64,000 bases of DNA from Minisyncoccota bacterium (GCA_035546035.1 DASZXC010000008.1:5202-69201); one strand, 5' to 3'; counted from the stretch's first letter, positions 3,443 to 49,136 are shown. Translations and numbers: made by a program. Notes: a model not told the origin generated them from the letters alone.

Positions 3443-4741
3443 TCAAAATACGGATTTTACGGCCGCGATCAGATCCGTCGAACGGAAATAGGTCGAAAGC
3501 TCGCTCTTCCAATTCGGATCTTTTATGGAAACGTCGGGCACGACGCCGTTCGATTCGACAGGCTGATTGTCGTCGCGGAGCGTAAGGCTGTGAACGAGGA
3601 GCATCGAGTATCTCTCGCTCGGATCGATGACGGTCTCGATCGGAAACGTATTCTCGACGGTGCCCCATCCGCGCGTCGTTTCCCCGACCGAATGCGCGAG
3701 GCCGAGGCGCTTCATGGCGGCGGTCGTCACTTCAGCCGTCGACTGGCTCGCCCCATCGGTCAATATGGCGATCTCTTTGTATCGTCCGAGCTCGGCGAAT
3801 TTCGGCGCGGTCGTGCGCTGCGGCTTGTATTCGCCCTGATGGTACAGGTCATATGCGTACTGATTCTCTCCTATGAAAAGCCCGACGAATGCGGCCGCGA
3901 AGTCGAGCGATCCGCCCAGATTGCCGCGAAGGTCTATGATCATACTCGATAGGCCGGGCGTAGTCGTCGCTGACAGGATCGTCCTACCGAATTCGATGAA
4001 CGTCGTCGGCGATATGCTTGAAATGCTCACGTAAAGCGTCTTCCCTACCGCTTTGCTTTTGACCGTCGGCTCTATACCGCCCGCGTCATAGAGGTCTTTG
4101 GTATTCGGATTGGCGAGCACCTCCTTTGCATACGACACCTGTTCGAGCTCCTTTCGCGCTTCGGACGATGTCTTGGCTTCTGCGGCAAGGACCTTCTGCT
4201 TTTCCTCTGCTGCTTTGTTCACGTCTTCGGCGCTCGCGCCTGCGGCCAAGCCGAGGTCCTGATAGAGATTCTTCTCCGGATGGATATTGCTTACCCCCTG
4301 GCGCAGTTCGGTTTCCTGTACGGCGGAAAGGAGCTGCCCATGCCCCACGGGCTGCAGGTTATAGAGAGCGATGATGAGCGTATCCACGACCATCTGCTTT
4401 TTTGCGGCAGTGGACGTCGCGGCATCGATCGCGGTCTTGAGCATTTCTGCCGTCCCGACGCGGTTGCGAGTCGCGAGAAGCGGCACGACGGGGCTATTCA
4501 GGGCTTTCTGGAGCGAAAGCTGGAAATGGTCCGCCACCTGCTCTTCCGTCGTCGAAGCCCAGTAATTCTCGCGGATCTTGTCGTACGCTTCCATACCGAA
4601 ACGCACGTATGGGTCGGATTCTTCAGGAGTTTTATATGTCGCTTCAGCGGCGCGAGAATTCAGGCTGTGGAGCGTTGCGAACACGGCACCGCCGGCAAGT
4701 GCGAGAGAAAGGACAATAACGACGATACGTTTCAATGACAT
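3443..4741 (-). CDS. C-terminal processing (tail-specific) peptidase, S41 family, with N-terminal TM anchor and a J-domain-like insert
   Basis: S41 motifs are present (IIDLRGNLGG, TDGASQSTAEV). Confidence 0.75.
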   Translation of the reverse strand: MSLKRIVVIVLSLALAGGAVFATLHSLNSRAAEATYKTPEESDPYVRFGMEAYDKIRENYWASTTEEQVADHFQLSLQKALNSPVVPLLATRNRVGTAEMLKTAIDAATSTAAKKQMVVDTLIIALYNLQPVGHGQLLSAVQETELRQGVSNIHPEKNLYQDLGLAAGASAEDVNKAAEEKQKVLAAEAKTSSEARKELEQVSYAKEVLANPNTKDLYDAGGIEPTVKSKAVGKTLYVSISSISPTTFIEFGRTILSATTTPGLSSMIIDLRGNLGGSLDFAAAFVGLFIGENQYAYDLYHQGEYKPQRTTAPKFAELGRYKEIAILTDGASQSTAEVTTAAMKRLGLAHSVGETTRGWGTVENTFPIETVIDPSERYSMLLVHSLTLRDDNQPVESNGVVPDVSIKDPNWKSELSTYFRSTDLIAAVKSVF

Positions 4742-7317
4742 GTAGAGGGGGCATTAGTAATTCCTCGAAGGAGGCAGAAGCATATGGCCCGGAGCGAAGA
4801 AAAGAGTTTAGTCAGTATTGTGCACGCGAGCTTATAGGCTTCAGTATACCAGAAAGACGGCGCGGTCCTTGAAATTATGGCCGCGGAAATGGATGCATTC
4901 GCAGGCTTTTCATTATCTTCTTCCACGTCGTTGGTAAAAATCACGACCTTTTCGTGAGAATTGTCGTGAATAGTATCAGAAGTTGCGCTAGGCATAGCGA
5001 CAAGAGCTTTTCTGCTTGGTGGCATAGGCCTCAACGCCGCACCTGGCTCCGTATCCGTTGGGACTGGCGGAGCAGGCGCTTCCGCCGAGGTCCCTCTTTC
5101 TTCAATTCCCTGCACCGCACCATCAATAATTTTCAATTCCAGGCTTCTACTTTCGCTGGGCGTGATCTGATCAGTAAAACTTGAAAAAGACGAGGTTGCA
5201 TCGGAGACAGACTCGGTCTCGACGGTATATTCACCATATCCAGTGCCTTGAACTTCGATTTCATATGTTCCGTCTATTGGATCAGGGATAGATATGAAGT
5301 GGATTTCAGCGTCATCGCCTGAATAAAATACTCCCGGAGTATCGAGGGCATCTTCTCCTACCGGAGATAGGACGCTCATCTTCGCCGGAGAATGCATAGA
5401 TATAATGAGGATATCTCGAGGCATAAAAAACGGACCTGATGAAGAGATAGGCGTAGTCGTCGCGCCGAGCATATCCAAGACGAGCGATGCCGCCTTGTCA
5501 GGCAATTCAGAATGAGTCGATGCGATCGGCGTATCTGACCCCATATAAAGAAAGGCGCTCCGCATAGGCACCGTGCCATCGCCGAGATCATATTCAAAAC
5601 CGATCGGCGTTCCATGCATCCATTTTTCAGAGGTCGTCGCGCCCTTGTCCGCGGTGATGATCGAAAGAGTATTCGTACCGCTATTCCCGACGATATTGCC
5701 TACCCTCAATGATGGATTGCTTAAAGAGTTTTTATTTCGATCGAGATTCTCAAGGAAAAGATTCGCCGGATAGCCGTCAGGATAGAAGGCCGGCTTATTG
5801 TAATCAGTCGTATCGATATATCCGTATATGGGCAGAAGCTCACTTACGGAAGGAACTTCGCCGCTTCGCATATAGCTCAAAGCACCCTTATATCCATGTG
5901 CCCGGGCATAGAGATCGATGAGGATTTTAAGCACCCTGTCCCACAGAGAATTACTGCCCATCTCCCCTCCTTCAGCCATAAGATATGCCAAAGGAGCGCC
6001 GTGCTGGGGAGTGCCAAGGAATATAAGATCGGCCACGTCGTTTCTGTAATCGACGGATTCTATGTACGATCTGACCGCGAGACCTCCCATCGAGTGAGCG
6101 ACGACGTCTACTTTCGGGCAGCCGCAGATATGTTTTATCTCCTCGATCCTATCTTTTAGAGCATTGCCTGTATCCACGTTCGATCTTCTCCAATCATACG
6201 GAAAGGTAAAAAGGGTCGAGGTCCCGTAGCCGACCCTCTCAAGCACGGTCACGAGTCCGTCGTATGTATGGAAGACGGGATCTAAAATCCATTTAGTTCC
6301 TAATTGAAATGAGCCGAGGATACCAGGAACGATGACGACCGGCCTTTTAAGAGAGGACTCTCCGAGATTCTGCTCTAACGCAGCCGTTTTTTCGGTTGAA
6401 GTCGCTCCGACATCGGGAGAATATGTGAGCCATGGGAAAAAATCGGTTCGCGGAAAGATCCATGACCCTATGCCTGCAATATTATCGCTATATCTCGGCC
6501 CTGACTGGTCTCCCCACCAATTGTTAATTGCCGTAACAGTTCCAGCGTAGGCAGAGAGCACATCGACCCCATTCTCTATACCGATGAAACTCGAGTTCTG
6601 TATAGAGATATCGCCTCCTTCGATATGCACCCCTTCTTTTCCATTAAGAAAGAGCGAATCGGTGATTCTAAGGACTCCCGTAGATTCTACGGACAGAGCT
6701 GCCCATGCGGGCGCGTTGAATGTAGAATACGTTACCGACAGATTGCCCCTCACAAGGATCATCGGCAGATCAGTGCAGCCGGTATGACAGGAATGCTCGC
6801 CTCCATATTCGACGACCACGTGAGAAAAGATGCTTTGGGAACCTGCGTCTATGATGATCGGATCTTCCCAATCCCCGGCAATGGGATTTTGAGAATTCGA
6901 TGTAAAGACAATCGGCTCTTCGGCAGTTCCACGAGCCTCGATATTGCCGAGCGCATCGAGGAAAAAGCCGTCGGCCATACGGACCTCGACTCCGGGTTCG
7001 ATTGAGAGCGTTAAGTCCTCCGGGATATTGAGGCCTCGATCTAATATATAAGGACTTCCCTCCTTTATCCATGAAGTGGAAGAAGCGAGAGTCTCGTCAG
7101 CGATTACTGTCGAAGCATGAGCAAAATCGGCCCATGACCAAGCACATATAATAAGAAGGAGGGGACGGAGAAAATGACTACCGTACGGTCGCAGTCTGCG
7201 CTGATTCTCCTTTTTCCTGAAAATGTCCGGTGATATAGAGGATACCGAGAGACGCCAGGATGATAGCGCCGAGGCCGAGAGCGAATCTAAAGAAATCTTT
7301 GTCGAACATGGCTTCAT
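4732..7317 (-). CDS. Membrane-anchored extracellular LCAT-like alpha/beta-hydrolase (lipase/acyltransferase) fused to an N-terminal parallel beta-helix domain
   Basis: 861 aa. A TM/signal-anchor segment lies at about aa 55-75. Beta-helix-like repeats follow. The hydrolase domain has FPYDWRRS, nucleophile elbow VVAHSMGG and GDGTVP. A Ser/Thr-rich C-terminal region ends the protein. Confidence 0.65.
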   Translation of the reverse strand: MKPCSTKISLDSLSASALSSWRLSVSSISPDIFRKKENQRRLRPYGSHFLRPLLLIICAWSWADFAHASTVIADETLASSTSWIKEGSPYILDRGLNIPEDLTLSIEPGVEVRMADGFFLDALGNIEARGTAEEPIVFTSNSQNPIAGDWEDPIIIDAGSQSIFSHVVVEYGGEHSCHTGCTDLPMILVRGNLSVTYSTFNAPAWAALSVESTGVLRITDSLFLNGKEGVHIEGGDISIQNSSFIGIENGVDVLSAYAGTVTAINNWWGDQSGPRYSDNIAGIGSWIFPRTDFFPWLTYSPDVGATSTEKTAALEQNLGESSLKRPVVIVPGILGSFQLGTKWILDPVFHTYDGLVTVLERVGYGTSTLFTFPYDWRRSNVDTGNALKDRIEEIKHICGCPKVDVVAHSMGGLAVRSYIESVDYRNDVADLIFLGTPQHGAPLAYLMAEGGEMGSNSLWDRVLKILIDLYARAHGYKGALSYMRSGEVPSVSELLPIYGYIDTTDYNKPAFYPDGYPANLFLENLDRNKNSLSNPSLRVGNIVGNSGTNTLSIITADKGATTSEKWMHGTPIGFEYDLGDGTVPMRSAFLYMGSDTPIASTHSELPDKAASLVLDMLGATTTPISSSGPFFMPRDILIISMHSPAKMSVLSPVGEDALDTPGVFYSGDDAEIHFISIPDPIDGTYEIEVQGTGYGEYTVETESVSDATSSFSSFTDQITPSESRSLELKIIDGAVQGIEERGTSAEAPAPPVPTDTEPGAALRPMPPSRKALVAMPSATSDTIHDNSHEKVVIFTNDVEEDNEKPANASISAAIISRTAPSFWYTEAYKLACTILTKLFSSLRAICFCLLRGITNAPSTCH

Positions 7318-7344
7318 AGTAGCATTCTTGGTAAGGCTTATAAA

Positions 7345-8619
7345 TCATTTCTCGAGCGCTCTTATGAGACGGGATCTCACCTCTTCGAGAGTGAGATCTC
7401 CTGCATAAGGTTGAACCGACGTCTGGGCGATCACTTTTCCTGACGGATTTGCTATGCGGATGAAATCCTTGGGTGAGTCGATATTGACCATATCGAGAGG
7501 GATCTCAATGGATGAAAGCGGGAGAATAATCGTGTCTTGAGGGAATGCGAACCTCTTTTCAGAGTCTTCAAGGATAAATCCGCCGATATTCACTTCTCCT
7601 TTACCTTGATTCGACAGCAGCATCCGTCCAGGTAAAAGGGATAGCGCTATGGAGGGTTCGATTATCCTGACCTTCACCTTGGCGACAGCGTGGAATCCTC
7701 CATAATCAGTATTCGTAATCACGATATAATCGCCAGGATACTGATATGCATGCGAAACGATCTGTCCGATGAGAAGCGACCCGTCCCCCATCGTCCATAC
7801 GCTTCGCAGGCCAGAACCGACGGCAACGTCTTTCGACTTCTTTACCTTTGCTTCAAAGGAGAGCGGCGCGCCGACGAAGCCTATGCGCGGTCTTCCTGCG
7901 GTCACTTCGAATTGAGGAGCGTCATAGGAAGTGTTGGCGACCTCCTGACTGCTATGAGCCGAGGTATCCGAATCACCAGACGATGAAGAGCTTCCGCTGT
8001 CTGAGCCCATGGAATCGCCTGATTGATCATCGGTACTTCCGCCTTCTTCAGCGGGAGGAGCCGCGGATTCCGTTGCGATCGTCACCGATCCGACCGATAC
8101 GGCAGCGGCGATCCACTCTCCTGTTCCTGTTTTCTGCAAGGTATTTCCGTCACCGGCAGCGCCAATCATTGGATCATAAGAGACGCTATCCATAGATACG
8201 CCCGTATCATCATCAATGCTGATCGTCTCGCCTTCATTGCTCAAGGAAAAAGCGCTGTCGAAAAGAAGTCCTGAAAATCCCGGATTATCGATCTTGAACT
8301 TATCAGGATTGTCAGCGATGACTGCGAATCCGCCTGCCGGGAGAAGCGATTCGCCGATCACGGAAATCTTGTGATTTACGCCGCCCTCGACGAATCTCCA
8401 TGTTGAAAGGTCTACGGATTCCGATCCGGTATTCTGTACTTCGACCCATTCCCTGCCGGAATCGGTTCCCGGCGCGTCATACATGATTTCGGTTATCGCC
8501 GCGGCCGCTGAAACACCTAGAGGTATAGACGCAAAAAGCCAAACGAAAAGCATGAGTCTCCACGCCGCCGTGTCGGAAAATTTCGCCGGATATTTTTTAC
8601 GATAAGAAAGAGTCCGCAT
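7345..8619 (-). CDS. Secreted lamin-tail-domain (LTD) protein with PKD-like domain
   Basis: N-terminal signal peptide. LTD signature ITEIMYDAPGTDSGREWVEVQNTGSESVDLSTWRF. A Ser/Asp-rich linker follows. PKD-like motif TMGDGS...HAYQYPGDYIV. Confidence 0.65.
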   Translation of the reverse strand: MRTLSYRKKYPAKFSDTAAWRLMLFVWLFASIPLGVSAAAAITEIMYDAPGTDSGREWVEVQNTGSESVDLSTWRFVEGGVNHKISVIGESLLPAGGFAVIADNPDKFKIDNPGFSGLLFDSAFSLSNEGETISIDDDTGVSMDSVSYDPMIGAAGDGNTLQKTGTGEWIAAAVSVGSVTIATESAAPPAEEGGSTDDQSGDSMGSDSGSSSSSGDSDTSAHSSQEVANTSYDAPQFEVTAGRPRIGFVGAPLSFEAKVKKSKDVAVGSGLRSVWTMGDGSLLIGQIVSHAYQYPGDYIVITNTDYGGFHAVAKVKVRIIEPSIALSLLPGRMLLSNQGKGEVNIGGFILEDSEKRFAFPQDTIILPLSSIEIPLDMVNIDSPKDFIRIANPSGKVIAQTSVQPYAGDLTLEEVRSRLIRALEK

Positions 8620-8664
8620 GGAAACATGTTCGCATGCGGACTCTTAAGAGAGAGTGAGGGAAAT

Positions 8665-9630
8665 TTAATAACTTATACGGTCGACAATCAAACCGGAAAC
8701 ATCATACAAAGTAATAGTCTCTTTGTTCGCCGCCCACAATTCCCTCCCTTTGCCCAAGAATATGCGCCACTTTTTCAGGGAAAAGCCCGCGTCGTTCCTG
8801 TGGACCGCCACGCAGGCGGGATAGCTTAATCGCCCCGCCATGAATGCCCTGCACTGCGCCGTCTGCAGGTCATAATTGGTCTTGTCGTATTTGTACGGAT
8901 CCTCGCAACGGTTCAAAGACTGCATATAGTCATAGCATTCGCTCGTCACCGTGTTTATAGCCGGGTCGTTCGTCGGATACGGGCAGCGCTGCTCGAGGGC
9001 CGGCTCGAATGGATAGTTCTTCAGGTATCCTTCGCAGATATTCTCGCGGAACGAGGTAGAAATGGAATAAGGGAATTGGGAAAAAGCCTGACCCGTCGTA
9101 ACGACGGCCGTATCGCCCGCCGCCAAAAGGATATGCCCGACCTGGAACGATCCCGACGGATCGAGGAACTGCGTGCCCTGCCCGATCGTCGCCGAATCCG
9201 CCGTCGGATATATGTAGCTGTTCTGGCTTGTCTGGATCGGACGGGTTCCCTTGCCGTTGGTCAGCGTCCAACCCGTGATGTCAACCGACGTCTGGCCGTA
9301 GTTCTGGAGCGTCACGTATTCTTCGAACGGCTGTATAGAATAGCTCGCATTTCCCATGCCGAGCGACACTCTGCCCGCGTATGCCGATCGCTGCCCCGCG
9401 GGGATGTCGTCCGAATTGCCTCCGGAGCCGTAACTCGATCCGCCGCCCGTGCCCCCCGACCCGCCGTCGAGGAAGCCCAGAAGCGGGTTGTTGCCGCCGC
9501 TCGTCTGGCCGTATCCGCCCGGCGAATTGATGCTGCCTCCTCCGCCGATATTCGTCGGCACGTATTTCGCTGCCGATGCGAGGACGATGAAAATGACGCA
9601 GACCATGACGACGATGAGTGCGATCTTCAT
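8665..9630 (-). CDS. Secreted LTD-like protein with Gly-rich N-region and Cys-rich C-terminal domain (paralog of 61944..62816)
   Basis: The likely start is the internal Met (MKIALIVV...). The ORF track extends to 9690. LTD-like motif EEYVTLQNYGQTSVDITGWTL. The C-terminus CEGYLKNY..CPYP..YPACVAV..WRIFLGKGRELW..ITLYDVSG.IVDRISY is shared with the 290-aa protein at 61944. Confidence 0.6.
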   Translation of the reverse strand: MKIALIVVMVCVIFIVLASAAKYVPTNIGGGGSINSPGGYGQTSGGNNPLLGFLDGGSGGTGGGSSYGSGGNSDDIPAGQRSAYAGRVSLGMGNASYSIQPFEEYVTLQNYGQTSVDITGWTLTNGKGTRPIQTSQNSYIYPTADSATIGQGTQFLDPSGSFQVGHILLAAGDTAVVTTGQAFSQFPYSISTSFRENICEGYLKNYPFEPALEQRCPYPTNDPAINTVTSECYDYMQSLNRCEDPYKYDKTNYDLQTAQCRAFMAGRLSYPACVAVHRNDAGFSLKKWRIFLGKGRELWAANKETITLYDVSGLIVDRISY

Positions 9631-9769
9631 GATGAATCCTCTCTGCGCGGAAAGCCTGTTCTTCATGGATTCATTATATCCATACAACACAAAAGCCGCA
9701 TCTTGCGATGCGGCTTTTGCCGAAACTTACGTCAAACCTTTCGGTTGAAGTAGGCTCTGTACGCTACCG

Positions 9770-11656
9770 TTAAGGGAGCGATACAGCTGCCGTCCTCCAA
9801 GCCGTCTGGCCTGCCATGAAGTTCGAAGTGGTCGTACCAGTACCGTCAGTGTTCTTGCTCCACGCAACCGACTCGAGACCTACGGCGTAGGAACCGGTCG
9901 AAAGGAGAGAACCAGCGGTCGTCCTACCCTCGAAGACGAAGTCTACAGGGATAGTGACCGAGTTGTTCTGAGCGAGCTTGAATGCCTGAGGGCCTGCGAG
10001 ATCCGTAACACCCGACGATGGCGTAGACCATGCAACGCTGGTGTTGTTGCTCAAGCTGGTCTTAGCACCGTTCTGGTAGATACCGAAGGTGAAGGTGTTG
10101 TTAGGAGCCTGGTCTGCGAAGACGATGTCGCCGCCGACTGCGGTGATCGTGAGGTTGAACGTTGCATCTGCGGTCGAGGTCGAGAAGTTGTTCTGAGATG
10201 CAGTCGCCGACTTCGTGATCGTAGCCGAGTTGAGCGTGAAGACAGGGCCTACGCTTCGGACGTTGAAGGTGTTACCCGTAGCAGTACCCGATGGGTTGAC
10301 CGTCGAGCCCTGAGTGTTCTGAGCGACTGGGCCGTTAGCGGCGACAGTGGCGTTGAACGTAGAGTTCGAGGTGCCTGCGTTCTGAATATCAGCCTTGATC
10401 GTGAGGACCTTAGTGGTGTCCTGAGGTACCCAGTAGTTGATGTTCGAGAATACAGCCTTACCCGTCGAGGTGTTGACCGATGCCGAGCCGATCAAGGTCG
10501 AACCGTCATAGAGGTAAGCAGCGGTTGCAGTAGCAGCGCCGGTACCGTTGACGGTTGCCGTGAGGTCGGTGATCTCAACCTGGTCCTTCTGAGCGCGAAC
10601 GTCGAACGCGAGGAGAGGGAGCTTGTCGTACTGGTTGTTGTTTGCACCAGCAGAAGCTACGACATCCGAAGCGAGGAAGTTAGCAGCGTCAGTCGAGACG
10701 AGGAGCTGAGCGTTATCGGTGAGCGAACCCGAGACGGTGACCGTCTGCGAGAACTGCGAGATAGGACCGTACTGGTCGATGCCAGCGCCGTCCGTACCGC
10801 GAACCGCGTTCGAAGGAACCGTGATGGTTCGAGAACCGAGGTCGCCAGACTTGATCGACGAGTAGAGGTCAGCCTTGATGGTCAAGTACTTCGTAGAGTC
10901 CTTTGGAACATTGTAGCTGAAGCCGCCGAGGGTGAGGAGGTAGTCGGTACCAGACTTAACAACAGTGTTGCTGTTGAGGTCAGCCTGCGCGAGAACCTTA
11001 CCCGAGTCGTCTACTACATACATGGTCTTGAAGACCTTGGTGTAGATAGTCGTGTTCGTGCCAAGATCGAGCTGAACGCGCTGGACGTTGATGTCCGAGA
11101 GCTTCGACTGGAGCTTGAGAGAAACGACAGGGATCATCGTCTGTCCTTCGTAGACCGTGATGTTCGAGATCGAACCCTGGTCAACGGTGAGGATGCCTTC
11201 AACGCCAGAGTTTACTACTGGGTTAGAGGAACCGCCGGTGGTGCCGGTCGACGAGGTGCCGTTGAGCGATGCGCGGGTGAGAGGGCCTACGTAACCCGTT
11301 GCTGGGATGCCGTGTGCCGACTGGTACGCGACGACAGCCGCCTTCGTGATCGAACCGAAGTAGCCAGTTGCTGGCGATACTCCGAGAGCGTTCTGGAGAG
11401 CGGTGACGTCAGCGCCCGACGAACCGACCGTGAGGTCCTTCGTGAACGAAACCGACGACGACGAGTTCACTGCTGCCAACGCGGCCTGGGCCTTGTCAGG
11501 AGAGATGATACCCATCTGGATAAAGAGGTTGACGAGCTGCGTCAAGGTCATTGCCTGTGCCGAAGCTGCCGAAGCCCCTACTGCTGCGAAGACCGTGAGA
11601 GCCATCGTGAAACCGATGACTGCTGCAACAACCTTCGAAGTTGTTTTAATTTGCAT
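9770..11656 (-). CDS. Large secreted surface (S-layer-like) protein with N-terminal peptidoglycan-binding domain and Ser/Thr/Asn-rich repeats
   Basis: 628 aa with a signal peptide. PG_binding_1-like segment (DVTALQNALGV...GYFGSITKAAVVAYQSAHGI). Internal repeats are visible (TKYLTIKADLYSS / TKVLTIKADIQNAG). Very low K/E content. Confidence 0.6.
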   Translation of the reverse strand: MQIKTTSKVVAAVIGFTMALTVFAAVGASAASAQAMTLTQLVNLFIQMGIISPDKAQAALAAVNSSSSVSFTKDLTVGSSGADVTALQNALGVSPATGYFGSITKAAVVAYQSAHGIPATGYVGPLTRASLNGTSSTGTTGGSSNPVVNSGVEGILTVDQGSISNITVYEGQTMIPVVSLKLQSKLSDINVQRVQLDLGTNTTIYTKVFKTMYVVDDSGKVLAQADLNSNTVVKSGTDYLLTLGGFSYNVPKDSTKYLTIKADLYSSIKSGDLGSRTITVPSNAVRGTDGAGIDQYGPISQFSQTVTVSGSLTDNAQLLVSTDAANFLASDVVASAGANNNQYDKLPLLAFDVRAQKDQVEITDLTATVNGTGAATATAAYLYDGSTLIGSASVNTSTGKAVFSNINYWVPQDTTKVLTIKADIQNAGTSNSTFNATVAANGPVAQNTQGSTVNPSGTATGNTFNVRSVGPVFTLNSATITKSATASQNNFSTSTADATFNLTITAVGGDIVFADQAPNNTFTFGIYQNGAKTSLSNNTSVAWSTPSSGVTDLAGPQAFKLAQNNSVTIPVDFVFEGRTTAGSLLSTGSYAVGLESVAWSKNTDGTGTTTSNFMAGQTAWRTAAVSLP

Positions 11657-27838: not shown

Positions 27839-30800
27839 TTAGCGGCGCAAAGCTATGCGAAACGAGTATTCTTCCACCTTCATTTCTTCAGCCTGCGGGA
27901 GATGGGCATGCTCTATGCCCGTGACGAGCGTTATCCTCTTTATATCGTGAAGGAACGCATGCGCGAGCTCTTTGCCCTTCTCATCCGAATCAAGGGCAAG
28001 GGAGACCTTGTCGTCCACGGTCAGATTCTCTTTCTTGCGAAGCTCCTGGACCGAGCGTATGAGGTCTCGGATCACGCCCTCCTTGCGGAGCCCTTCAGTC
28101 ACGTCCGTATCGAGAGCCGTTTCAGCGGCTATCGTATGGTCCACGCCGACGGCTTTGACGTTCACTTCGTCTTTGATGAGGTCGATGAGGTCGGCGCCCA
28201 GCGAGGCGTTCTTGATGACCAGCTTGGCGAGAGGCTGGCGGACCTTGATGTTCGCCTTCGATCGTTCCTGGAGAGCGATCGTCACGATCTTCCGCGTCTC
28301 TTCCATCGCCTTCACGATTTTTCCATCGACGGAGGCTTCTGCCGGCCAATCTGCGAGGTGTACGCTTTCGGGATCGTTCGAACGCCTGATACGGCTGAAG
28401 AGATAGTCGGCGTAGAAAGGAATGAAGGGCGCGGCTATTTTCGCGAATTCGGCGAGGACGAATCGGGTCGTGGAAAGAGCCGCCTCTTTGTCGGCGCGGT
28501 TGTCAGATTTGAATCGGTCGCGCGATCGGCGCAGGTACCACGTCGAAAGGTCGTCTACGAACGACATCAACGGTCGCGCGGCCTTATCGAGCTGATAGAA
28601 ATCGAGATATTCGGTCATCTCGTTTCTTGTCTCATTGAGGCGCGCGCGTATCCAGAGGTCAAGAACGCTCTTTGAATCGGTTCTCGATGCCTTTTCGCTC
28701 TCTCCCCTGTTCGCGTACATCTCATAGAAAGCGAGGACGTTGTCGAGGCGCTGGATGAGCTTCTTGGACACTTCGTCTACGCCTTTTTCAGAGAAGCAGA
28801 GGTCCTGAGCGGCCACGACCGGAGAGGAAAGCAGATAATAGCGGAGAGAGTCGGCGCCATATTTGCCGATGACTTCGAGCGGGTCGGGATAGTTATTGAG
28901 GCGCTTGGACATCTTCTCGCCGTCTTCAGCCAAGATGATGCCGTTCACGACGACGTTCTTGTACGGGCTCTTTCCGAAGAGACCGACGCCGAGGACCATC
29001 ATGGAATAGAACCAGCCGCGAGTCTGGTCTAGGCCTTCGGCGATGAAATCGGCGGGATAGCCCTTTACGCCGCCCAAAAGACCTCCAAGCCTGCCGTTCG
29101 GATCGAAATGCTCCAAAGCCTTGCCGCGATAGTTCGATTCGCCGTACGGCATCGAGCCCGATTCGAACCAACAGTCGAATACTTCCGCTACGCGGACAAG
29201 CTTTTCGCCGTCCGGCGCGACGCATTCGACCGTATCTATATACGGCCTATGGAGGTCGAGATCGAATCCCCTGTTATGCGGCAAGCGAACAAAGTCGAAC
29301 GGATGGCATTCGCCCGTTTTTTGGAAATAGCGGCGCTCGTCGTGGAGGATCTTGTCCTCGGACGCGGTCTCGCCTATCCCATGAAGGATCGTGTTCAGAG
29401 GCGAGCCGTGGCTCACGATGAGGATCTTCTTGCCCGAATATTTTCTATCTATATCGAACATCGCTTCGAAGACGCGCTTCTTCAAATCCACCGGCGTTTC
29501 CATACCCGGGAAGAGCCCGTGCGTGCGGACGTGACGATCCGTCTCGGCCCACAGCTTGCCTTCCCTGTCGGGACCGACGTTGTATTCGCGGAGGCGGACG
29601 TCATAGACGATCTCGTTCTCCGGTATGCCGCAGGCATCGGCTATCATGCGCGCCGTCTCTTTGGTGCGCTCGAAATCGGACGCGACGATGACGTCGACGC
29701 CTTGCGCGGCGATCTTTTTGGCGGCTTCAGCGATCTGCTGTCTGCCCTTTTCGGTGAGGCCGTAATTTTTGGAGAGACTTATGTTCGAATTCGAAACGCC
29801 GAGAGCGTTCGCCTTCGATTCGCCGTGGCGGATGAGCGTATATGAATTGCCTGATCGCTGTATGAGCTTCGCCAGATCGGATATACCCCCGATCGGATAG
29901 AGCTTGCCCGAATCGACTCCCTTCCAGACAGGGATAGGGGCGCCCCAGAAGCGCGAGCGCGATATGGCCCAGTCGCGGGCGCCTTCGAGCCATTTGCCGA
30001 AGCGCCCGTCGCGGATATCGTCCGGCGTCCAAGAGACTTTTTTGTTCGCAGCGACGAGCTTGTCCTTGAACAACGTGACGCGGACGAACCACGATGACGC
30101 AGCGTAATTGAGGAGCGGCGTGTCGCAGCGCCAGCAGTGGGGGTACGAGTGGACGATCTTCTTCTTGTCGAAGAGAAGGCCGTGATGAGCGAGCCATTTG
30201 ACAATCTCGATATCGGTCTTCTGATGACCGTCCTTTTCATCAGACTTGGGCTTGACCGGCTGACCCGCGAAATCGGCGACTTCCGGCTTGAACGTTCCGT
30301 TCATAGCCACGTGCTGGATGAAAGGCAGGTCGTTCGCCTGGCCGAGCTTCATGTCATCGTCGCCGAACGCCGGCGCTATATGCACGATGCCGGTACCGTC
30401 TTCGGTCGTGACGAAATCGGCGGCATATACCTTGAATCCGTTCTTTTCATCCTTGAGAGAGCCGTCGAGATAGTATGAGAACGCCGGCTCGTATCCGTCG
30501 CCGACGAGCTCGCGGCCCTTTATGACGGAGACGAGCGCGTGCTCCTTGCCCGCGAATACGTCGGCGACGCGGTCGCGCGCGACGATATATGTCGCATTCT
30601 CGTACGATACGCGGGCGTAATCGATATCAGCGCCTACGGCCAAGGCGACGTTTCCGGGAAGCGTCCACGGCGTCGTGGTCCAGGCGATGAAGTATTCATT
30701 CGGAGGAGTCCCCTTCCTCTTCATTTTGACGAATACGGATATGTCGGTGATGTCCTTGTATCCCTGATTCACCTCGAAATTGGCGAGCGTCGTCTCGCAT

Positions 30801-31363
30801 CGCGGACATATCTGCATAGACTTGAAGCCTTCGTAGACGAGACCTTTGTCGAAGAGCGTCTTGAACGCCCACCAGACGGACTGGGTGTATGCCGCGTCCA
30901 TGGTGCGATAGTCGTCATCCATGTCTACCCAGCGGCCGATGCGGGGTATGATCTTTCTCCAGTCATGGGCGTATCGAAGGACGCTCTCTTCCGCCACGGC
31001 ATTGAATCTCTCCATGCCGTAATCGACGATGTCTTTTCGCGATCTGAGGCCGAGCTCCTTTTCGACCAAGTTCTCTACCGGCAGGCCGTGACAGTCCCAG
31101 CCCCAGCGCCGCGCGACATGATACCCGCGCATAGTCTTGTAGCGCGGAACGGCGTCTTTGATGAACGAAGCCAGCATGTGGCCGTAATGTGGAAGGCCGT
31201 TCGCGAACGGCGGGCCGTCATAAAAGACGAATTCCTTGCCTTTTTTGTCGAGAGATTTCTGGAAGATCTCCTTTTCGTTCCAAAAAGAAAGTATCTTTTC
31301 CTCTATTTCGACCAGTTTGGTCTTCGGCTTGGTTTCCGGTTGGGTTTTGGGAGCGTCTGCCAT
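27839..31363 (-). CDS. ileS: Isoleucyl-tRNA synthetase (type 2) with an inserted histidine-phosphatase-like domain
   Basis: 1174 aa. PHYGH, WAISRSRFWGAPIPVW and KMSKR motifs are present. Confidence 0.9.
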   Translation of the reverse strand: MADAPKTQPETKPKTKLVEIEEKILSFWNEKEIFQKSLDKKGKEFVFYDGPPFANGLPHYGHMLASFIKDAVPRYKTMRGYHVARRWGWDCHGLPVENLVEKELGLRSRKDIVDYGMERFNAVAEESVLRYAHDWRKIIPRIGRWVDMDDDYRTMDAAYTQSVWWAFKTLFDKGLVYEGFKSMQICPRCETTLANFEVNQGYKDITDISVFVKMKRKGTPPNEYFIAWTTTPWTLPGNVALAVGADIDYARVSYENATYIVARDRVADVFAGKEHALVSVIKGRELVGDGYEPAFSYYLDGSLKDEKNGFKVYAADFVTTEDGTGIVHIAPAFGDDDMKLGQANDLPFIQHVAMNGTFKPEVADFAGQPVKPKSDEKDGHQKTDIEIVKWLAHHGLLFDKKKIVHSYPHCWRCDTPLLNYAASSWFVRVTLFKDKLVAANKKVSWTPDDIRDGRFGKWLEGARDWAISRSRFWGAPIPVWKGVDSGKLYPIGGISDLAKLIQRSGNSYTLIRHGESKANALGVSNSNISLSKNYGLTEKGRQQIAEAAKKIAAQGVDVIVASDFERTKETARMIADACGIPENEIVYDVRLREYNVGPDREGKLWAETDRHVRTHGLFPGMETPVDLKKRVFEAMFDIDRKYSGKKILIVSHGSPLNTILHGIGETASEDKILHDERRYFQKTGECHPFDFVRLPHNRGFDLDLHRPYIDTVECVAPDGEKLVRVAEVFDCWFESGSMPYGESNYRGKALEHFDPNGRLGGLLGGVKGYPADFIAEGLDQTRGWFYSMMVLGVGLFGKSPYKNVVVNGIILAEDGEKMSKRLNNYPDPLEVIGKYGADSLRYYLLSSPVVAAQDLCFSEKGVDEVSKKLIQRLDNVLAFYEMYANRGESEKASRTDSKSVLDLWIRARLNETRNEMTEYLDFYQLDKAARPLMSFVDDLSTWYLRRSRDRFKSDNRADKEAALSTTRFVLAEFAKIAAPFIPFYADYLFSRIRRSNDPESVHLADWPAEASVDGKIVKAMEETRKIVTIALQERSKANIKVRQPLAKLVIKNASLGADLIDLIKDEVNVKAVGVDHTIAAETALDTDVTEGLRKEGVIRDLIRSVQELRKKENLTVDDKVSLALDSDEKGKELAHAFLHDIKRITLVTGIEHAHLPQAEEMKVEEYSFRIALRR

Positions 31364-36045: not shown

Positions 36046-37341
36046 ATGAGAGAAATCATCATCGTAGACGACCTTTCACCGGAGCCTGGAGCGATGGTGC
36101 AAGCGCTTTATTCCCGCGATCCCCGCAGCGTCAAAGACCATTTGGTCCAAGTCCGCGAGAAAGGCGCCGAGAAATTCATGTCATCGTATTACGTCGGCTA
36201 TGGGCACAAGTCCATCGGCGACTGCGGCACGACGTCTATATTCGCCGAGAACGTTTCGATGCTCGTCGCCAAGGCTATCCAGGATTGGCCTTTGTATAAC
36301 GGCCAGGAAGCCTCGACGCGATATCTCGATATGGCTGCGCAAGAAGTCGTCGATCCTGTCGGCACCCCTGACAGCAAGGCTATCCAGGACGAATGGATGC
36401 GATTCTATCGCTATGCCCTCGACAAGCTCGTGCCTGTCCTGAAACAGCGCTTCCCTATCCAGCCCGAACAGAAGGAGACAGTATATGAGAAAGCGGTCAA
36501 AGCTCGCGCATTCGACATCGCCCGCGGCTTCCTGCCTGCCGGCGTAACGACGTACGCCGCATGGCACACCAACCTCCGCCAGGCATACGATCACATCAAA
36601 GAGATGCGCCACCATCCATTGGCCGAAGTGCGCGAGACTGCCGCTTTGATCCATGACGAGCTCAAGAAAAAATATGCGTCGAGCTTCTCCCACAAGGAAT
36701 ATCCGATGGAAGAAGCATATGTCGAGGAGAGCATGAGGCAATTCGCGTTCTTCGACGATGCGGAAGCTGTCAAAGGGTTCTCATATGACGCGCGCATGCT
36801 CGACCTGAACGGCCTCGCAAAGCACCAGAAGCTCCTCGCCGAGAGGCCTGCGAAGGCAGAATTGCATCAGCGCATGCGCCAGTACGGCAATATAGTATTC
36901 GCTTTCCCTCTCGATTTCGGCTCGTACCGCGACCTTCAGCGCCACCGAAGCTGCATCCAGGAGATGCCCCTTCTCTCTACCCGTCACGGCTTCTATCCGT
37001 GGTATCTCGAACAGCTCCCTGAAGACCTGCGCGGCGAAGCCGTAAAGGTATTAAAGGAACAGGAAGATCGCATCGCGAGACTCGATGCGACGCCCGAGAT
37101 CAGGCAATATTACATCGCCATGGGATACACCGTTGCCGTAAAGATGACCGCGCCGCTTCCCGCAGCCGTCTATACCGCCGAATTACGCTCGTCGGACACC
37201 GTACACCCGACGCTTCGCGTCCAAGCGCAGAGGATGGGTGACGCGATCAAGGAAGCCGTTCCCGGCATCGCCATGCATCACGATCTGACGCCTGGCACCT
37301 GGAACATCAAGCGCGGCAATCACGATATCGTGAAGAAATAA
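36046..37341 (+). CDS. thyX: FAD-dependent thymidylate synthase ThyX-like, tandem duplication of two ThyX-like domains
   Basis: 431 aa. Domain 1 (about aa 1-212) has the ThyX-like ...NGQEASTRY block, but DWP sits where RHR is expected. Domain 2 (about aa 213-431) has RHR (aa 298-300, DLQRHRSCIQ) with a divergent downstream motif. Confidence 0.55.
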   Translation: MREIIIVDDLSPEPGAMVQALYSRDPRSVKDHLVQVREKGAEKFMSSYYVGYGHKSIGDCGTTSIFAENVSMLVAKAIQDWPLYNGQEASTRYLDMAAQEVVDPVGTPDSKAIQDEWMRFYRYALDKLVPVLKQRFPIQPEQKETVYEKAVKARAFDIARGFLPAGVTTYAAWHTNLRQAYDHIKEMRHHPLAEVRETAALIHDELKKKYASSFSHKEYPMEEAYVEESMRQFAFFDDAEAVKGFSYDARMLDLNGLAKHQKLLAERPAKAELHQRMRQYGNIVFAFPLDFGSYRDLQRHRSCIQEMPLLSTRHGFYPWYLEQLPEDLRGEAVKVLKEQEDRIARLDATPEIRQYYIAMGYTVAVKMTAPLPAAVYTAELRSSDTVHPTLRVQAQRMGDAIKEAVPGIAMHHDLTPGTWNIKRGNHDIVKK

Positions 37342-47765: not shown

Positions 47766-49136
47766 CTAGAACTCCTGGAAATTAGGGATGAGAGTCTGAG
47801 AAGAGACCCAAAGGGTATGGCTATCTGTCTGCCCTCCGCCCGACGCGATGAATATAACCGAACAGGATGCGTTGACCCCTGCCGAGAATTTGAGCTGAAC
47901 GGAGAGGCCTATCCTTCCGGAAGGAGCTCTGTAGTTCCCCGCCGAGTCGAACGTCATGACAGCCTGGGGCGCCGCCTCAAAATCCGCTCCGTCGAATGAA
48001 TAAGAGACGTTCGAGCATGTGGTCGAATCGACCCTGACAACGACACTCTGATCAAAAGAGCCGAACGGGTTGACCTCTAGATCCTTCACTGGGCTCGTGC
48101 CGTCCAGATTCGAAGAGAATTTCGCCGAAACAGACGCGTCTCCATCGAGCGTGAACCCGCTCGAGACGTTACCGCCATCATTGGCGCCTCCGCCATCGGT
48201 ATTGTCACTACCATTCCCGCCAGGAGCATAGTCACACGGAAGAAGACCGCCGACATTAACCGCAGCCGCATCCTGGCAGACATTTACGGGAGGATACGAG
48301 CACGGAAGAAGACCGCCGTAATTTAAAGCATTCGAATCCTGACAAGCCGATAGAGGATAGGCGCAATTGACCGCCTCTCCATAATTAATCGCCGCGGGAT
48401 CGGAACAGACGGCAGGCGGTTGCACCACAAGAGCGCAATTCAAAGATTTCCCGCTTCCGGAAAGAGCGGCGTTACCGCCGTCGCCTATATTGATCCCGTA
48501 TGCGTCGATCGCGTGGGCCGAGCCGTCTTTGACGGACACCGGGGTCGGGAAAGAAAAGGCGTGATTGCCGACGTCTCCCCTATAGCCGTCGGCATGAGCC
48601 GCTCCCACGAATGCGCCGTCTGAATAAAAGTGGACATCGATGGCGGCATTAGGGTCGTCAGCATCCGATGCCCAGCCATTGAACGAATCGCACGATGCGG
48701 AATCGAGCCAGCCTTGAGGATTATTAGGATCGGTATGAGTGACCGGCGGCTGATCTACGCAGTTGCCCGCAGCGTCTTTGACCATACCAGGAGGCACGGA
48801 ATCCTGATTTCCTGAAACGTTAGGGCATATGTCGACGGGATTGCCGGAACCTCCGCCAGAGCCGACTTCTGGATTTGCGGGTTCGCCAGAGTACTCATAG
48901 TAAAAATCGGTGATGCCAGAATAGCTGCCGCAGTCGAGGGTTCCCGTTCCGATAGGTCTCCACTCATCGTCAAAACTCCTGCAACCTTCGGAAGTGTCGC
49001 TATCAAATCCGTCGAGATGGAAATCACTGCTTGAGTATTGAGCATTCACCCGCAGAATGGCCACATTGAAGAAAAAGAGGGTGAAGATGATCAGGGCCGC
49101 CCTCAACGAACGCCTCTCTTGAAATTTTCGTGTCAT
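47766..49136 (-). CDS. Secreted protein with triple cysteine-containing tandem repeat and Gly/Asp-rich regions
   Basis: 456 aa with a signal peptide. Three consecutive repeats of about 21 aa lie at aa 240-305, with pattern C-x-D-x(2-3)-A-[ILV]-N-[YV]-G-x(3)-[NP]-C-x-Y-[PA]-P. Confidence 0.6.
   Translation of the reverse strand: MTRKFQERRSLRAALIIFTLFFFNVAILRVNAQYSSSDFHLDGFDSDTSEGCRSFDDEWRPIGTGTLDCGSYSGITDFYYEYSGEPANPEVGSGGGSGNPVDICPNVSGNQDSVPPGMVKDAAGNCVDQPPVTHTDPNNPQGWLDSASCDSFNGWASDADDPNAAIDVHFYSDGAFVGAAHADGYRGDVGNHAFSFPTPVSVKDGSAHAIDAYGINIGDGGNAALSGSGKSLNCALVVQPPAVCSDPAAINYGEAVNCAYPLSACQDSNALNYGGLLPCSYPPVNVCQDAAAVNVGGLLPCDYAPGGNGSDNTDGGGANDGGNVSSGFTLDGDASVSAKFSSNLDGTSPVKDLEVNPFGSFDQSVVVRVDSTTCSNVSYSFDGADFEAAPQAVMTFDSAGNYRAPSGRIGLSVQLKFSAGVNASCSVIFIASGGGQTDSHTLWVSSQTLIPNFQEF

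What the first reader, a model, noticed from the sequence alone, without database searches (positions are those of the whole stretch)
4732..7317. Membrane-anchored beta-helix plus LCAT-like lipase
This 861-aa protein has a cytoplasmic N-terminus of about 55 aa and a single TM anchor. Parallel-beta-helix-like repeats follow. The alpha/beta-hydrolase domain carries the LCAT/PGAP1-family hallmarks FPYDWRRS, the nucleophile elbow AHSMGG and the catalytic-Asp loop GDGTVP. A Ser/Thr-rich C-terminal domain of about 250 aa ends the protein. A surface-exposed phospholipase or acyltransferase in a small-genome, probably host-attached bacterium is a candidate effector for remodelling or harvesting host membrane lipids.
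Basis: partly seen in the sequence, partly recalled or inferred. Interest (0 to 1): 0.6.

Follow-up and report, generated by a model that had tools for sequence, protein, structure and literature searches.

The report
Secreted multi-domain lipase of a CPR bacterium

The parts
4732..7317 (-). Longest ORF (861 codons plus stop) as given in the finding. The real translation start is uncertain. NCBI calls it only from Met114 (window 6978), which cuts off conserved beta-helix turns.
7178..7309 (-). Conserved 43-aa small ORF (MFDKDFFRFALGLGAIILASLGILYITGHFQEKGESAQTATVR*) with one strong TM helix. It starts 8 nt after the ATG at 7317, in another frame, and overlaps lipase codons 3-47. NCBI annotates it as VHE10_01325.
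   Evidence: The same 43-aa ORF sits at the same place in L002 and L003. Substitutions pile up on its third codon positions, 39/77, p~0.001. P0234.
7114..7200 (-). Sec-type signal peptide in the lipase frame (aa 40-68: RRLRPYGSHFLRPLLLIICAWSWADFAHA, cleavage predicted after AHA).
   Evidence: RRLR is conserved in the lipase frame in three genomes. Distant homologs have ordinary signal peptides at this position. The model shows a helix at aa 50-62. The hydrophobic core is short.
6388..7110 (-). Right-handed parallel beta-helix, aa 70-310, ending in the NNWWGD motif. It is the distal module if the protein is tethered by its C-terminus. No conserved catalytic residues.
5458..6354 (-). Alpha/beta-hydrolase (lipase) domain, aa 322-620, including the FPYDWR motif and a ~135-aa cap inserted after strand b6.
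6091..6093 (-). Codon of the nucleophile Ser409 (AHSMGG elbow, directly after strand b5, aa 403-408).
   Evidence: Invariant in 120 sequences. Topology. Coordinates.
5593..6000 (-). Cap or lid region, aa 440-575. It is mostly helical and rich in nearly invariant aromatic residues (Y445, W448, Y482, Y500, Y512, Y516, F521, W566).
   Evidence: 254-260 residues align to LPLA2 and Tle4 against only 162 to the cap-less LipA-type lipase Lip_vut1.
5578..5580 (-). Codon of the catalytic Asp580 (GDGTVP, after strand b7, aa 570-577).
   Evidence: Invariant. Topology.
5512..5514 (-). Codon of the catalytic His602 (STHSELP, after strand b8, aa 595-598).
   Evidence: Invariant. Topology.
5092..5421 (-). 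Ig-like beta-sandwich domain, aa 633-742. It follows the hydrolase in all 119 aligned homologs.
4849..5085 (-). Disordered Ala/Pro/Ser/Thr-rich linker, aa 745-823.
   Evidence: pLDDT 29-48. Composition. Median identity to homologs 18%.
4756..4848 (-). C-terminal amphipathic or hydrophobic helix, aa 824-854 (YTEAYKLACTILTKLFSSLRAICFCLLRGIT). It is a possible membrane tether. The C-terminal modules vary across the family (amphipathic helix, true TM, or FIMAH-type helical domain).
3443..4741 (-). S41 C-terminal-processing-type peptidase with a signal peptide. Its start overlaps the lipase stop by 10 nt. It sits in the same position in L002.
7345..11656 (-). Three upstream co-oriented genes for exported proteins: LTD+PKD protein (7345-8619), LTD protein (8665-9690) and PG_binding_1 protein (9770-11656). 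Intergenic gaps are 27-79 nt. The cluster is conserved between ftsK and rplJ in related genomes.

Best explanation
The gene encodes a Sec-exported, modular serine lipid esterase of a Candidatus Paceibacterota (CPR/Patescibacteria) bacterium.

After signal-peptide removal (about aa 68/69) the mature protein has five parts:
- an N-terminal right-handed beta-helix with no conserved active site, so a rigid binding or spacer module;
- an alpha/beta-hydrolase with the Ser409-Asp580-His602 triad and a large aromatic-rich cap of the LCAT/LPLA2/Tle4 type;
- an Ig-like beta-sandwich;
- an ~80-residue flexible linker;
- a terminal amphipathic helix.

Inferred mechanism: the C-terminal helix and linker tether the enzyme to the producer's envelope. 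Alternatively the adjacent S41 C-terminal protease trims them. The beta-helix tip contacts the surface of a neighbouring or host cell. The capped lipase then removes acyl chains from membrane glycerophospholipids, as a phospholipase A or lysophospholipase, possibly with acyl transfer. This damages the host membrane and releases fatty acids and lysolipids that a lipid-auxotrophic CPR cell can take up.

Shown: the fold, the triad, the export signal, the family distribution and the gene neighbourhood. Inferred: the substrate, the target cell, the tethering, and the roles of the beta-helix, the S41 peptidase and the small ORF.
For: - Triad: Ser409, Asp580 and His602 are invariant in 120 homologs. 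They sit at the canonical positions after b5, b7 and b8 of a confident model (mean pLDDT 82, domains >90).
- Sequence families: Pfam LCAT 49.6 bits (cut-off 21), PGAP1 26.5 (24.3), Lipase_2 20.8 (20.3).
- PDB profile search: the best hit is 4r1d (Tle4), followed by LipA-type lipases, LPLA2 and LCAT, the last through the PYDWR region.
- Export: 96/119 homologs have an N-terminal hydrophobic signal. The query has RRLR, a hydrophobic core and AHA|S.
- Neighbourhood: all four flanking genes carry signal peptides, and the cluster is syntenic in other Paceibacteria.
- Distribution: the family is centred on Patescibacteria, with 535 clusters at 50% identity at E <= 1e-30.
- Divergence: the lipase is 39-48% identical to its L002/L003 orthologs, while its neighbours are 58-74% identical. 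The beta-helix and tail are the most variable parts. This is what a host-interaction protein would show.
- Literature: CPR lack lipid synthesis, are enriched in lysolipids and are thought to take lipids from other bacteria (PMC7242380). No lipid breakdown or uptake mechanism has been identified (PMC11665869). Tle4/TplE degrades bacterial membranes (PMC5611513).
Against: - The Pfam LCAT match covers only profile positions 66-177 of 392.
- No lipid-uptake or lipid-activation genes were seen in the 64-kb window.
- The C-terminal helix is only marginally hydrophobic (Kyte-Doolittle 1.66, with Lys and Arg inside), so tethering is uncertain.
- The S41 neighbour is clade-specific.
- The host of this organism is unknown.
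- The true translation start is unresolved.
Confidence: 0.55

Rival explanations
1. The enzyme is mainly a weapon and not a feeding tool. It would be a Tle4-like membrane-destroying toxin that kills or permeabilises the host or competitors, with a small adjacent membrane protein protecting the producer.
For: - Tle4 is the best structural and profile match, and Tle4 needs an immunity protein because it degrades membranes (PMC5611513).
- Small membrane-protein genes are tightly linked to the lipase. In this clade it is the 43-aa ORF at the 5' end. In many other Patescibacteria a ~129-aa polytopic protein lies directly downstream.
Against: - There are no T6SS genes and no homolog of the Tli4 immunity protein.
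- The small proteins have no tested function.
- Killing and feeding are not mutually exclusive for an obligate epibiont.
Confidence: 0.15
2. The enzyme remodels the producer's own envelope as an LCAT/LPLA2-style transacylase. It would move acyl chains between scavenged lipids, for example re-acylating lysolipids or acylating a glycolipid or protein, outside the cytoplasmic membrane.
For: - The LCAT family signature PYDWR is present and the Pfam LCAT hit is above cut-off.
- LCAT and LPLA2 are acyltransferases as well as hydrolases (established knowledge of the family).
- The gene sits in a conserved cluster with cell-envelope proteins (PG_binding_1, LTD, S41) at a fixed chromosomal place.
- CPR membranes are lysolipid-rich (PMC7242380).
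Against: - A distal beta-helix and a long flexible tether are unnecessary for acting on one's own membrane.
- The lipase diverges much faster than its envelope neighbours.
- Sequence cannot separate transfer from hydrolysis.
Confidence: 0.13
3. The enzyme is not a membrane-lipid enzyme. It would be an esterase for a polymer or acylated glycan (PHB or polyester, O-acylated capsule, peptidoglycan or teichoic acid), with the beta-helix acting as the carbohydrate-binding part.
For: - There is a faint NCBIfam PhaZ7 hit.
Against: - The NCBIfam PhaZ7 score is 18 bits against a cut-off of 450.
- The top structural neighbours, with the longest alignments including the cap, are phospholipases.
- The cap is rich in conserved aromatics.
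- The beta-helix has no conserved acidic or basic residues, so it has no lyase or hydrolase site.
Confidence: 0.1
4. The protein is translated from the ATG at 7317 and stays in the membrane as a type II protein with a ~55-aa cytoplasmic N-terminus and an uncleaved signal anchor.
For: - The ATG at 7317 is conserved, and the long frame is open from it in the window, L002 and L003.
- There is no other ATG, GTG or TTG before codon 114.
Against: - In codons 1-30 the substitutions fall on the second position of this frame, which is the third position of the overlapping small ORF, so this frame is unconstrained there.
- Openness of the frame is expected by chance in 8-59% of synonymous recodings.
- The hydrophobic core is too short for a TM helix and is followed by AHA|S.
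- Distant homologs start with plain signal peptides.
Confidence: 0.07

Closest known systems
Tle4 / TplE (PA1510) of Pseudomonas aeruginosa, a PGAP1-like type VI secretion antibacterial phospholipase (PDB 4R1D)
   Same: - Best profile match in the PDB (E 1.1e-9).
- Both have an alpha/beta-hydrolase core plus a large cap.
- Both exceed the Pfam PGAP1 threshold.
- Both are exported to act outside the producer's cytoplasm, probably on another cell's membrane.
   Different: - Only 19% identity.
- No T6SS, VgrG or Hcp context and no Tli4-type immunity gene.
- Delivery is by a Sec signal peptide.
- It carries extra beta-helix, Ig-like sandwich, linker and terminal-helix modules.
LCAT and lysosomal phospholipase A2 (LPLA2/PLA2G15), Pfam PF02450
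   Same: - Pfam LCAT hit above the gathering score.
- Shared PYDWR motif upstream of the nucleophile elbow.
- Ser-Asp-His triad.
   Different: - The HMM match covers only positions 66-177 of 392.
- The Asp-to-His spacing is 22 residues, as in small bacterial LipA-type lipases, and not ~32 as I recall for LCAT and LPLA2 (from memory, not tested).
- It is bacterial, multi-domain and of unknown acceptor or substrate.
Bacillus subtilis LipA / family I.4 minimal lipases (Pfam Lipase_2; PDB 1I6W, 6NKC)
   Same: - Best single-sequence PDB hits (E 4e-7), with the identical AHSMGG elbow.
   Different: LipA-type enzymes are ~180 aa with no cap. This domain has a ~135-aa cap inserted after b6 and is embedded in an 860-aa modular protein.
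BlEst2 / EstA3 (lipolytic family XIV): alpha/beta hydrolase followed by C-terminal beta-sandwich domain(s) (PDB 6WPX)
   Same: - Same order, with the hydrolase followed by a beta-sandwich.
- In BlEst2 the C-terminal domains inhibit the pro-form, according to the PDB entry title as cited in PMC10816834. In EstA3 the sandwich favours long-chain substrates (PMC10816834).
Beta-helix surface proteins: phage tailspike capsule depolymerases, autotransporter passengers (pertactin, Vag8), the PfbA adhesin
   Different: - No conserved catalytic acidic residues.
- No Pfam Beta_helix hit for this sequence itself.
- The predicted model contains a single chain; oligomeric state was not examined.

Membership tests
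Alpha/beta-hydrolase fold serine hydrolases | Nucleophile elbow Sm-x-Ser-x-Sm directly after strand b5. | tested here: met
   AHSMGG with Ser409 follows strand 403-408 and precedes helix 410-419. Ser409 is invariant in 120 sequences.
Alpha/beta-hydrolase fold serine hydrolases | Acid after b7 and His after b8, in the order Ser-Asp-His. | tested here: met
   Asp580 follows strand 570-577 and His602 follows strand 595-598. Both are invariant. The 3D distances were not measurable because no coordinates are available.
LCAT family (Pfam PF02450) | HMM score above the curated gathering threshold. | tested here: met
   49.6 bits against 21, E 4.6e-13. Homologs score 57-62 bits.
LCAT family (Pfam PF02450) | Match over the whole catalytic domain, including the Asp and His regions. 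| tested here: not met
   Only profile positions 66-177 of 392 align. The Asp/His segment alone finds nothing in the PDB by sequence.
LCAT family (Pfam PF02450) | Fold similarity to solved LCAT and LPLA2, including the cap. | tested here: met
   [not shown]
LCAT family (Pfam PF02450) | Phospholipid-dependent acyltransferase or PLA2 activity. | not testable with these tools
   Needs an enzyme assay.
Tle4 / PGAP1-like T6SS lipase effectors | PGAP1-like domain and Tle4-like fold. | tested here: met
   [not shown]
Tle4 / PGAP1-like T6SS lipase effectors | Genetic linkage to T6SS (VgrG, Hcp, PAAR) and delivery by it. | tested here: not met
   No such genes were found among the 40 window ORFs scanned or in the related loci. 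The protein has a Sec signal peptide instead.
Tle4 / PGAP1-like T6SS lipase effectors | Adjacent cognate immunity gene. | tested here: inconclusive
   There is no Tli4-like gene. Small membrane-protein ORFs are tightly linked: the 43-aa ORF here and a ~129-aa protein in other lineages. Their function is unknown.
Lipase_2 / LipA minimal lipases | Small (~180 aa) cap-less alpha/beta hydrolase. | tested here: not met
   The Pfam score is only just above cut-off (20.8 against 20.3). The domain is ~300 aa with a 135-aa cap.
Right-handed parallel beta-helix (pectate-lyase-like) enzymes | Beta-helix fold. | tested here: met
   [not shown]
Right-handed parallel beta-helix (pectate-lyase-like) enzymes | Conserved catalytic acidic or basic residues on the helix face. 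| tested here: not met
   Only Gly, Pro, Trp, Leu and Ala columns reach 80% conservation in the beta-helix region.
Extracellular PHB depolymerase PhaZ7 (NCBIfam NF050060) | Equivalog HMM score above cut-off. | tested here: not met
   18 bits against 450.
   The hydrophobic core is ~10-12 residues, with a Kyte-Doolittle 19-mer of 1.42 and an AHA|S site. The upstream 30 codons are unconstrained in this frame.

The most novel reading that the evidence does not exclude
The conserved 43-aa membrane-peptide ORF that overlaps the 5' end of the lipase gene in another frame is a functional partner of the lipase. It could be a cis-acting 'monitoring' leader peptide that couples lipase synthesis to membrane or secretion status, in the manner of MifM or SecM. 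Or it could be a tiny immunity or anchor peptide that keeps the phospholipase off the producer's own membrane.

On this reading the lipase would be initiated non-canonically: leaderless from the ATG at 7317, or from CTG42 behind an AAGGAG, or by coupling. Together with the beta-helix 'tailspike-like' tip, this would define a Sec-dependent effector-plus-guard module that CPR bacteria use to tap host membranes.
Probability: 0.15. Interest if true: 0.75.

Novelty: new variant of a known kind. Interest (0 to 1): 0.5.

Why it matters
CPR/Patescibacteria cannot make their own fatty acids or phospholipids, yet they have normal acyl-lipid membranes that are rich in lysolipids (PMC7242380). [quoted passage not shown]

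This protein belongs to a large family centred on Patescibacteria. The members are exported, have an intact triad and are of the phospholipase type. That gives a concrete and testable candidate for the first step, which is releasing acyl chains or lysolipids from a neighbour's membrane. The variable beta-helix tip offers a possible handle on host specificity.

The work also corrects the public annotation. The NCBI model starts at Met114, so it lacks the signal peptide and the first helix turns. It also exposes an unusual overlapping small ORF at the 5' end of the gene.

Even so, the enzyme class itself is ordinary, and the idea that CPR secrete phospholipases has already been proposed for another protein (PMC8080830).

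Tried and rejected
- **Pfam on the query's own beta-helix and C-terminal regions.** This gave no hits. The fold came from the structure model and from homologs instead.
- **phmmer of the Asp/His segment (aa 530-625) against the PDB.** It found nothing, so equivalence of Asp and His rests on invariance and topology.
- **The afdb50 fold library.** It was unavailable.
- **Programmed +1 frameshift joining the small ORF to the lipase.** Rejected as unlikely. There is no shared slippery site, the codons before the stop (CGG/CGC/CGT) cannot re-pair in the +1 frame, and RRLR is conserved in the lipase frame upstream of the small ORF's stop.
- **Whether the long frame is kept open by selection.** Synonymous recoding leaves it open in 33%, 59% and 8% of trials, which is inconclusive.
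- **The promoter scan.** It did not flag the TTTATA-N17-TACTAT element upstream of the gene, which scores 8/12 against a threshold of 9. The leaderless-mRNA idea therefore rests only on conservation seen by eye in three loci.
- **YceI (lipid-binding family) next to the lipase.** It is present only in L003 and is not conserved.
- **S41 peptidase as a universal partner.** It is present only in the window and L002.
- **The sandwich domain as a BlEst2-type propeptide.** 6WPX was not retrieved when the sandwich was searched alone.
- **Literature searches.** Combinations of CPR or Patescibacteria with LCAT, PGAP1 or lipase found no description of this family.
- **Paralogs.** There is no second copy of the family in the 64-kb window.


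Full report
**1. The observation**

The ORF at 4732..7317 exists, but it is on the minus strand. It has 861 codons. FPYDWRRS is at aa 372, AHSMGG at 407 and GDGTVP at 579, with a His in THSELP at 602. It is a real gene. An identical protein (P0001, NCBI VHE10_01320) comes from a 380-kb contig of a Candidatus Paceibacterota MAG, and at least 494 homologs were scored, nearly all from Patescibacteria. The rest of the window holds housekeeping genes: aminoacyl-tRNA synthetases, RecA, FtsK, ribosomal proteins, PilM, a Mur ligase and ThyX. That fits a CPR genome.

**2. Anatomy**

An AlphaFold2 model built on a 120-sequence alignment is confident (mean pLDDT 82, folded domains >90). It divides the protein as follows:
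- aa 1-46: disordered.
- aa 50-62: a helix, which is the hydrophobic core of the signal sequence.
- aa 70-310: a regular beta-strand ladder, the beta-helix.
- aa 311-321: a linker.
- aa 322-620: an alpha/beta hydrolase.
- aa 633-742: a beta-sandwich.
- aa 745-823: disordered.
- aa 824-854: a helix.

In the hydrolase, Ser409 follows strand 403-408, Asp580 follows strand 570-577 and His602 follows strand 595-598. This is the canonical b5/b7/b8 arrangement. A ~135-residue, mostly helical cap (aa 440-575) is inserted after b6. Ser409, Asp580 and His602 are invariant in all 120 aligned sequences, and many aromatic cap residues are nearly invariant. I could not measure triad distances because model coordinates are not exposed.

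**3. What the catalytic domain resembles**

- By sequence: Pfam LCAT scores 49.6 bits (cut-off 21) but only over profile positions 66-177 of 392. PGAP1 scores 26.5 (24.3) and Lipase_2 20.8 (20.3).
- By single sequence against the PDB, B. subtilis LipA is best (4e-7).
- With the family profile, the best PDB hit is 4r1d chain A (1.1e-9). LipA-type lipases, LPLA2 (1.7e-5) and LCAT (1e-4) follow, and the LCAT match runs through the PYDWR region.
- Foldseek independently gives BlEst2 (4.8e-9), LCAT (1.1e-8) and Tle4 (1.7e-6).

Tle4/TplE is a T6SS effector that degrades membranes unless its immunity protein neutralises it (PMC5611513).

**4. The other domains**

The beta-helix is an optional module. 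51 of 119 homologs have an alignable one, and the position of the nucleophile Ser ranges from residue 93 to 944.

The tail is an A/P/S/T-rich disordered linker followed by an amphipathic helix. C-terminal modules differ across the family. About 46 of 119 end in a FIMAH-type helical domain, a few have a true TM segment (P0043), and the query's subclade has amphipathic helices.

**5. The N-terminus**

Distant homologs begin with ordinary signal peptides placed directly before the first beta-helix turn. The query's equivalent is RRLRPYGSHFLRPLLLIICAWSWADFAHA|ST. Its hydrophobic core is short (Kyte-Doolittle 19-mer 1.42).

Upstream of that, the long frame reads as Ser/Arg-rich filler. Eight nucleotides after the ATG at 7317, in another frame, lies a 43-aa ORF with a strong TM helix (window 7309..7178). 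The same 43-aa ORF, with the same offset and the same stop position, is present in the two closest syntenic genomes, L002 and L003. Between genomes, 39 of 77 substitutions in its TM part fall on its third codon positions (p about 0.001-0.007). So the small-ORF frame, not the lipase frame, is under purifying selection there. NCBI annotates it as VHE10_01325.

The lipase frame becomes conserved at RRLR in all three genomes, upstream of the small ORF's stop. There is no ATG, GTG or TTG in the lipase frame between codons 2 and 113. The only near-cognate codon with a Shine-Dalgarno-like sequence is CTG42, 12 nt after AAAAGGAG.

NCBI's start at Met114 removes the signal peptide and about 45 residues that align with homologs from distant genomes, so it is too short. 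The long frame being open from the ATG at 7317 in three genomes is not statistically telling. A +1 frameshift is unlikely, because there is no shared slippery site. How the lipase is initiated remains unresolved.

**6. Neighbourhood**

Five co-oriented genes with gaps of -10 to 79 nt encode a PG_binding_1 protein, two LTD (one with PKD) proteins, the lipase and an S41 peptidase. All have N-terminal signal sequences. The order ftsK - hypothetical - PG_binding_1 protein - (LTD/PKD) - lipase - ... - rplJ - rplL is kept even where the lipase is only 34-37% identical. The gene is therefore a fixed chromosomal component and not an island.

The neighbours are 58-74% identical to their L002/L003 orthologs, while the lipase is 39-48% identical. 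Within the lipase, the hydrolase core is the most conserved part and the beta-helix, sandwich and tail the least.

In many other Patescibacteria a ~129-aa polytopic membrane protein with no Pfam match lies immediately downstream of the lipase homolog. The S41 gene is specific to the window and L002. L003 has a YceI gene there instead.

**7. Distribution**

A search of 1.84 billion representative proteins with the hydrolase plus sandwich found 535 clusters at E <= 1e-30 and 2192 at E <= 1e-10. In species-representative genomes the close matches are named Paceibacterota, Giovannonibacteria, Jorgensenbacteria, Yanofskybacteria, Minisyncoccia, Saccharibacteria and 'Patescibacteria group'. Matches outside the CPR are mostly weaker (25-30% identity) and cover the hydrolase core only.

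**8. Interpretation**

What is shown is an exported, modular serine hydrolase. Its catalytic domain is structurally closest to phospholipases and acyltransferases that work on membranes. It is conserved across a lineage that cannot make lipids.

What is inferred is its substrate, its target and the roles of its accessory modules. I infer that it deacylates host or neighbour glycerophospholipids. I also infer that the distal beta-helix contacts the other cell and that the C-terminal linker and helix tether the enzyme. The S41 protease or the small membrane proteins may modulate it.

This fits the lysolipid-rich, scavenged membranes of CPR (PMC7242380) and the stated lack of any known lipid acquisition mechanism (PMC11665869). 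A secreted phospholipase with the same proposed role was already suggested for Vampirococcus (PMC8080830).

They are scored in the rival section.

**9. Verdict**

The protein is a new variant of a known kind: a phospholipase-type alpha/beta hydrolase in a new, Patescibacteria-centred, Sec-dependent modular architecture. I did not find it described in the searchable literature. Interest is moderate, because the protein is a good experimental entry point to CPR lipid acquisition. The unexplained overlapping small ORF is the most unusual detail.

Noticed in passing
window 7178..7309 (-); L002 7796..7927; L003 7637..7768: A conserved 43-aa single-TM ORF (MFDKxFF+xALG...) overlaps the 5' end of the lipase ORF in another frame. 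It shows a third-codon-position substitution bias. A conserved promoter-like TTTATA-N17-19-TAYTAT lies just upstream, and its -10 box contains the ATG of the long ORF. This suggests a leaderless transcript. How the lipase itself is initiated is unexplained.
   Followed up: partly
window 4732..6978 (-): The public NCBI gene model (VHE10_01320, 748 aa) starts at Met114. It lacks the signal peptide and the first beta-helix turns that align with distant homologs, so the annotation is too short at the 5' end.
   Followed up: yes
L085 8791..9180; L086 8401..8790; also L004, L005, L006, L008, L013 directly after the lipase homolog: A ~129-aa polytopic membrane protein with no Pfam match (motif GG.KKYWWIG.LLIPA..FE...HIYFP) lies immediately downstream of lipase homologs in many other Patescibacteria. 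It is absent from this window. It may be an anchor or an immunity-like partner.
   Followed up: partly
window 27839..31363 (-): A 1174-aa class-I (IleRS-like) tRNA synthetase carries a histidine-phosphatase domain (His_Phos_1, E 9.6e-28, aa 509-664). The domain is inserted in the middle of the catalytic domain.
   Followed up: no
L003 10614..11282: In one related genome a YceI-family gene follows the lipase by 7 nt, where this window has the S41 peptidase. YceI is a lipid- or polyisoprenoid-binding family. The arrangement is not conserved elsewhere.
   Followed up: partly
window 6118..6126 (-), aa 398-400: A Cys-x-Cys motif (ICGCPK) just before strand b5 is nearly invariant (>=90%) across the family. 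Its role is unknown. It could be a disulfide or a metal site in an extracellular enzyme.
   Followed up: no
window 3443..11656 (-) compared with L002 and L003: The lipase (39-48% identity) and the LTD+PKD protein (35-55%) diverge much faster than the adjacent PG_binding_1 protein (72-74%), the LTD protein (58-67%) and the S41 peptidase (60%).
   Followed up: partly
window 36046..37341 (+): The ThyX (Thy1) homolog is 431 aa, but the Pfam domain covers only aa 22-209. About 220 C-terminal residues are left without a match.
   Followed up: no
window 47766..50476 (-): Two adjacent, overlapping ORFs of 456 and 447 aa have no Pfam match. They lie next to a DUF817 membrane protein.
   Followed up: no
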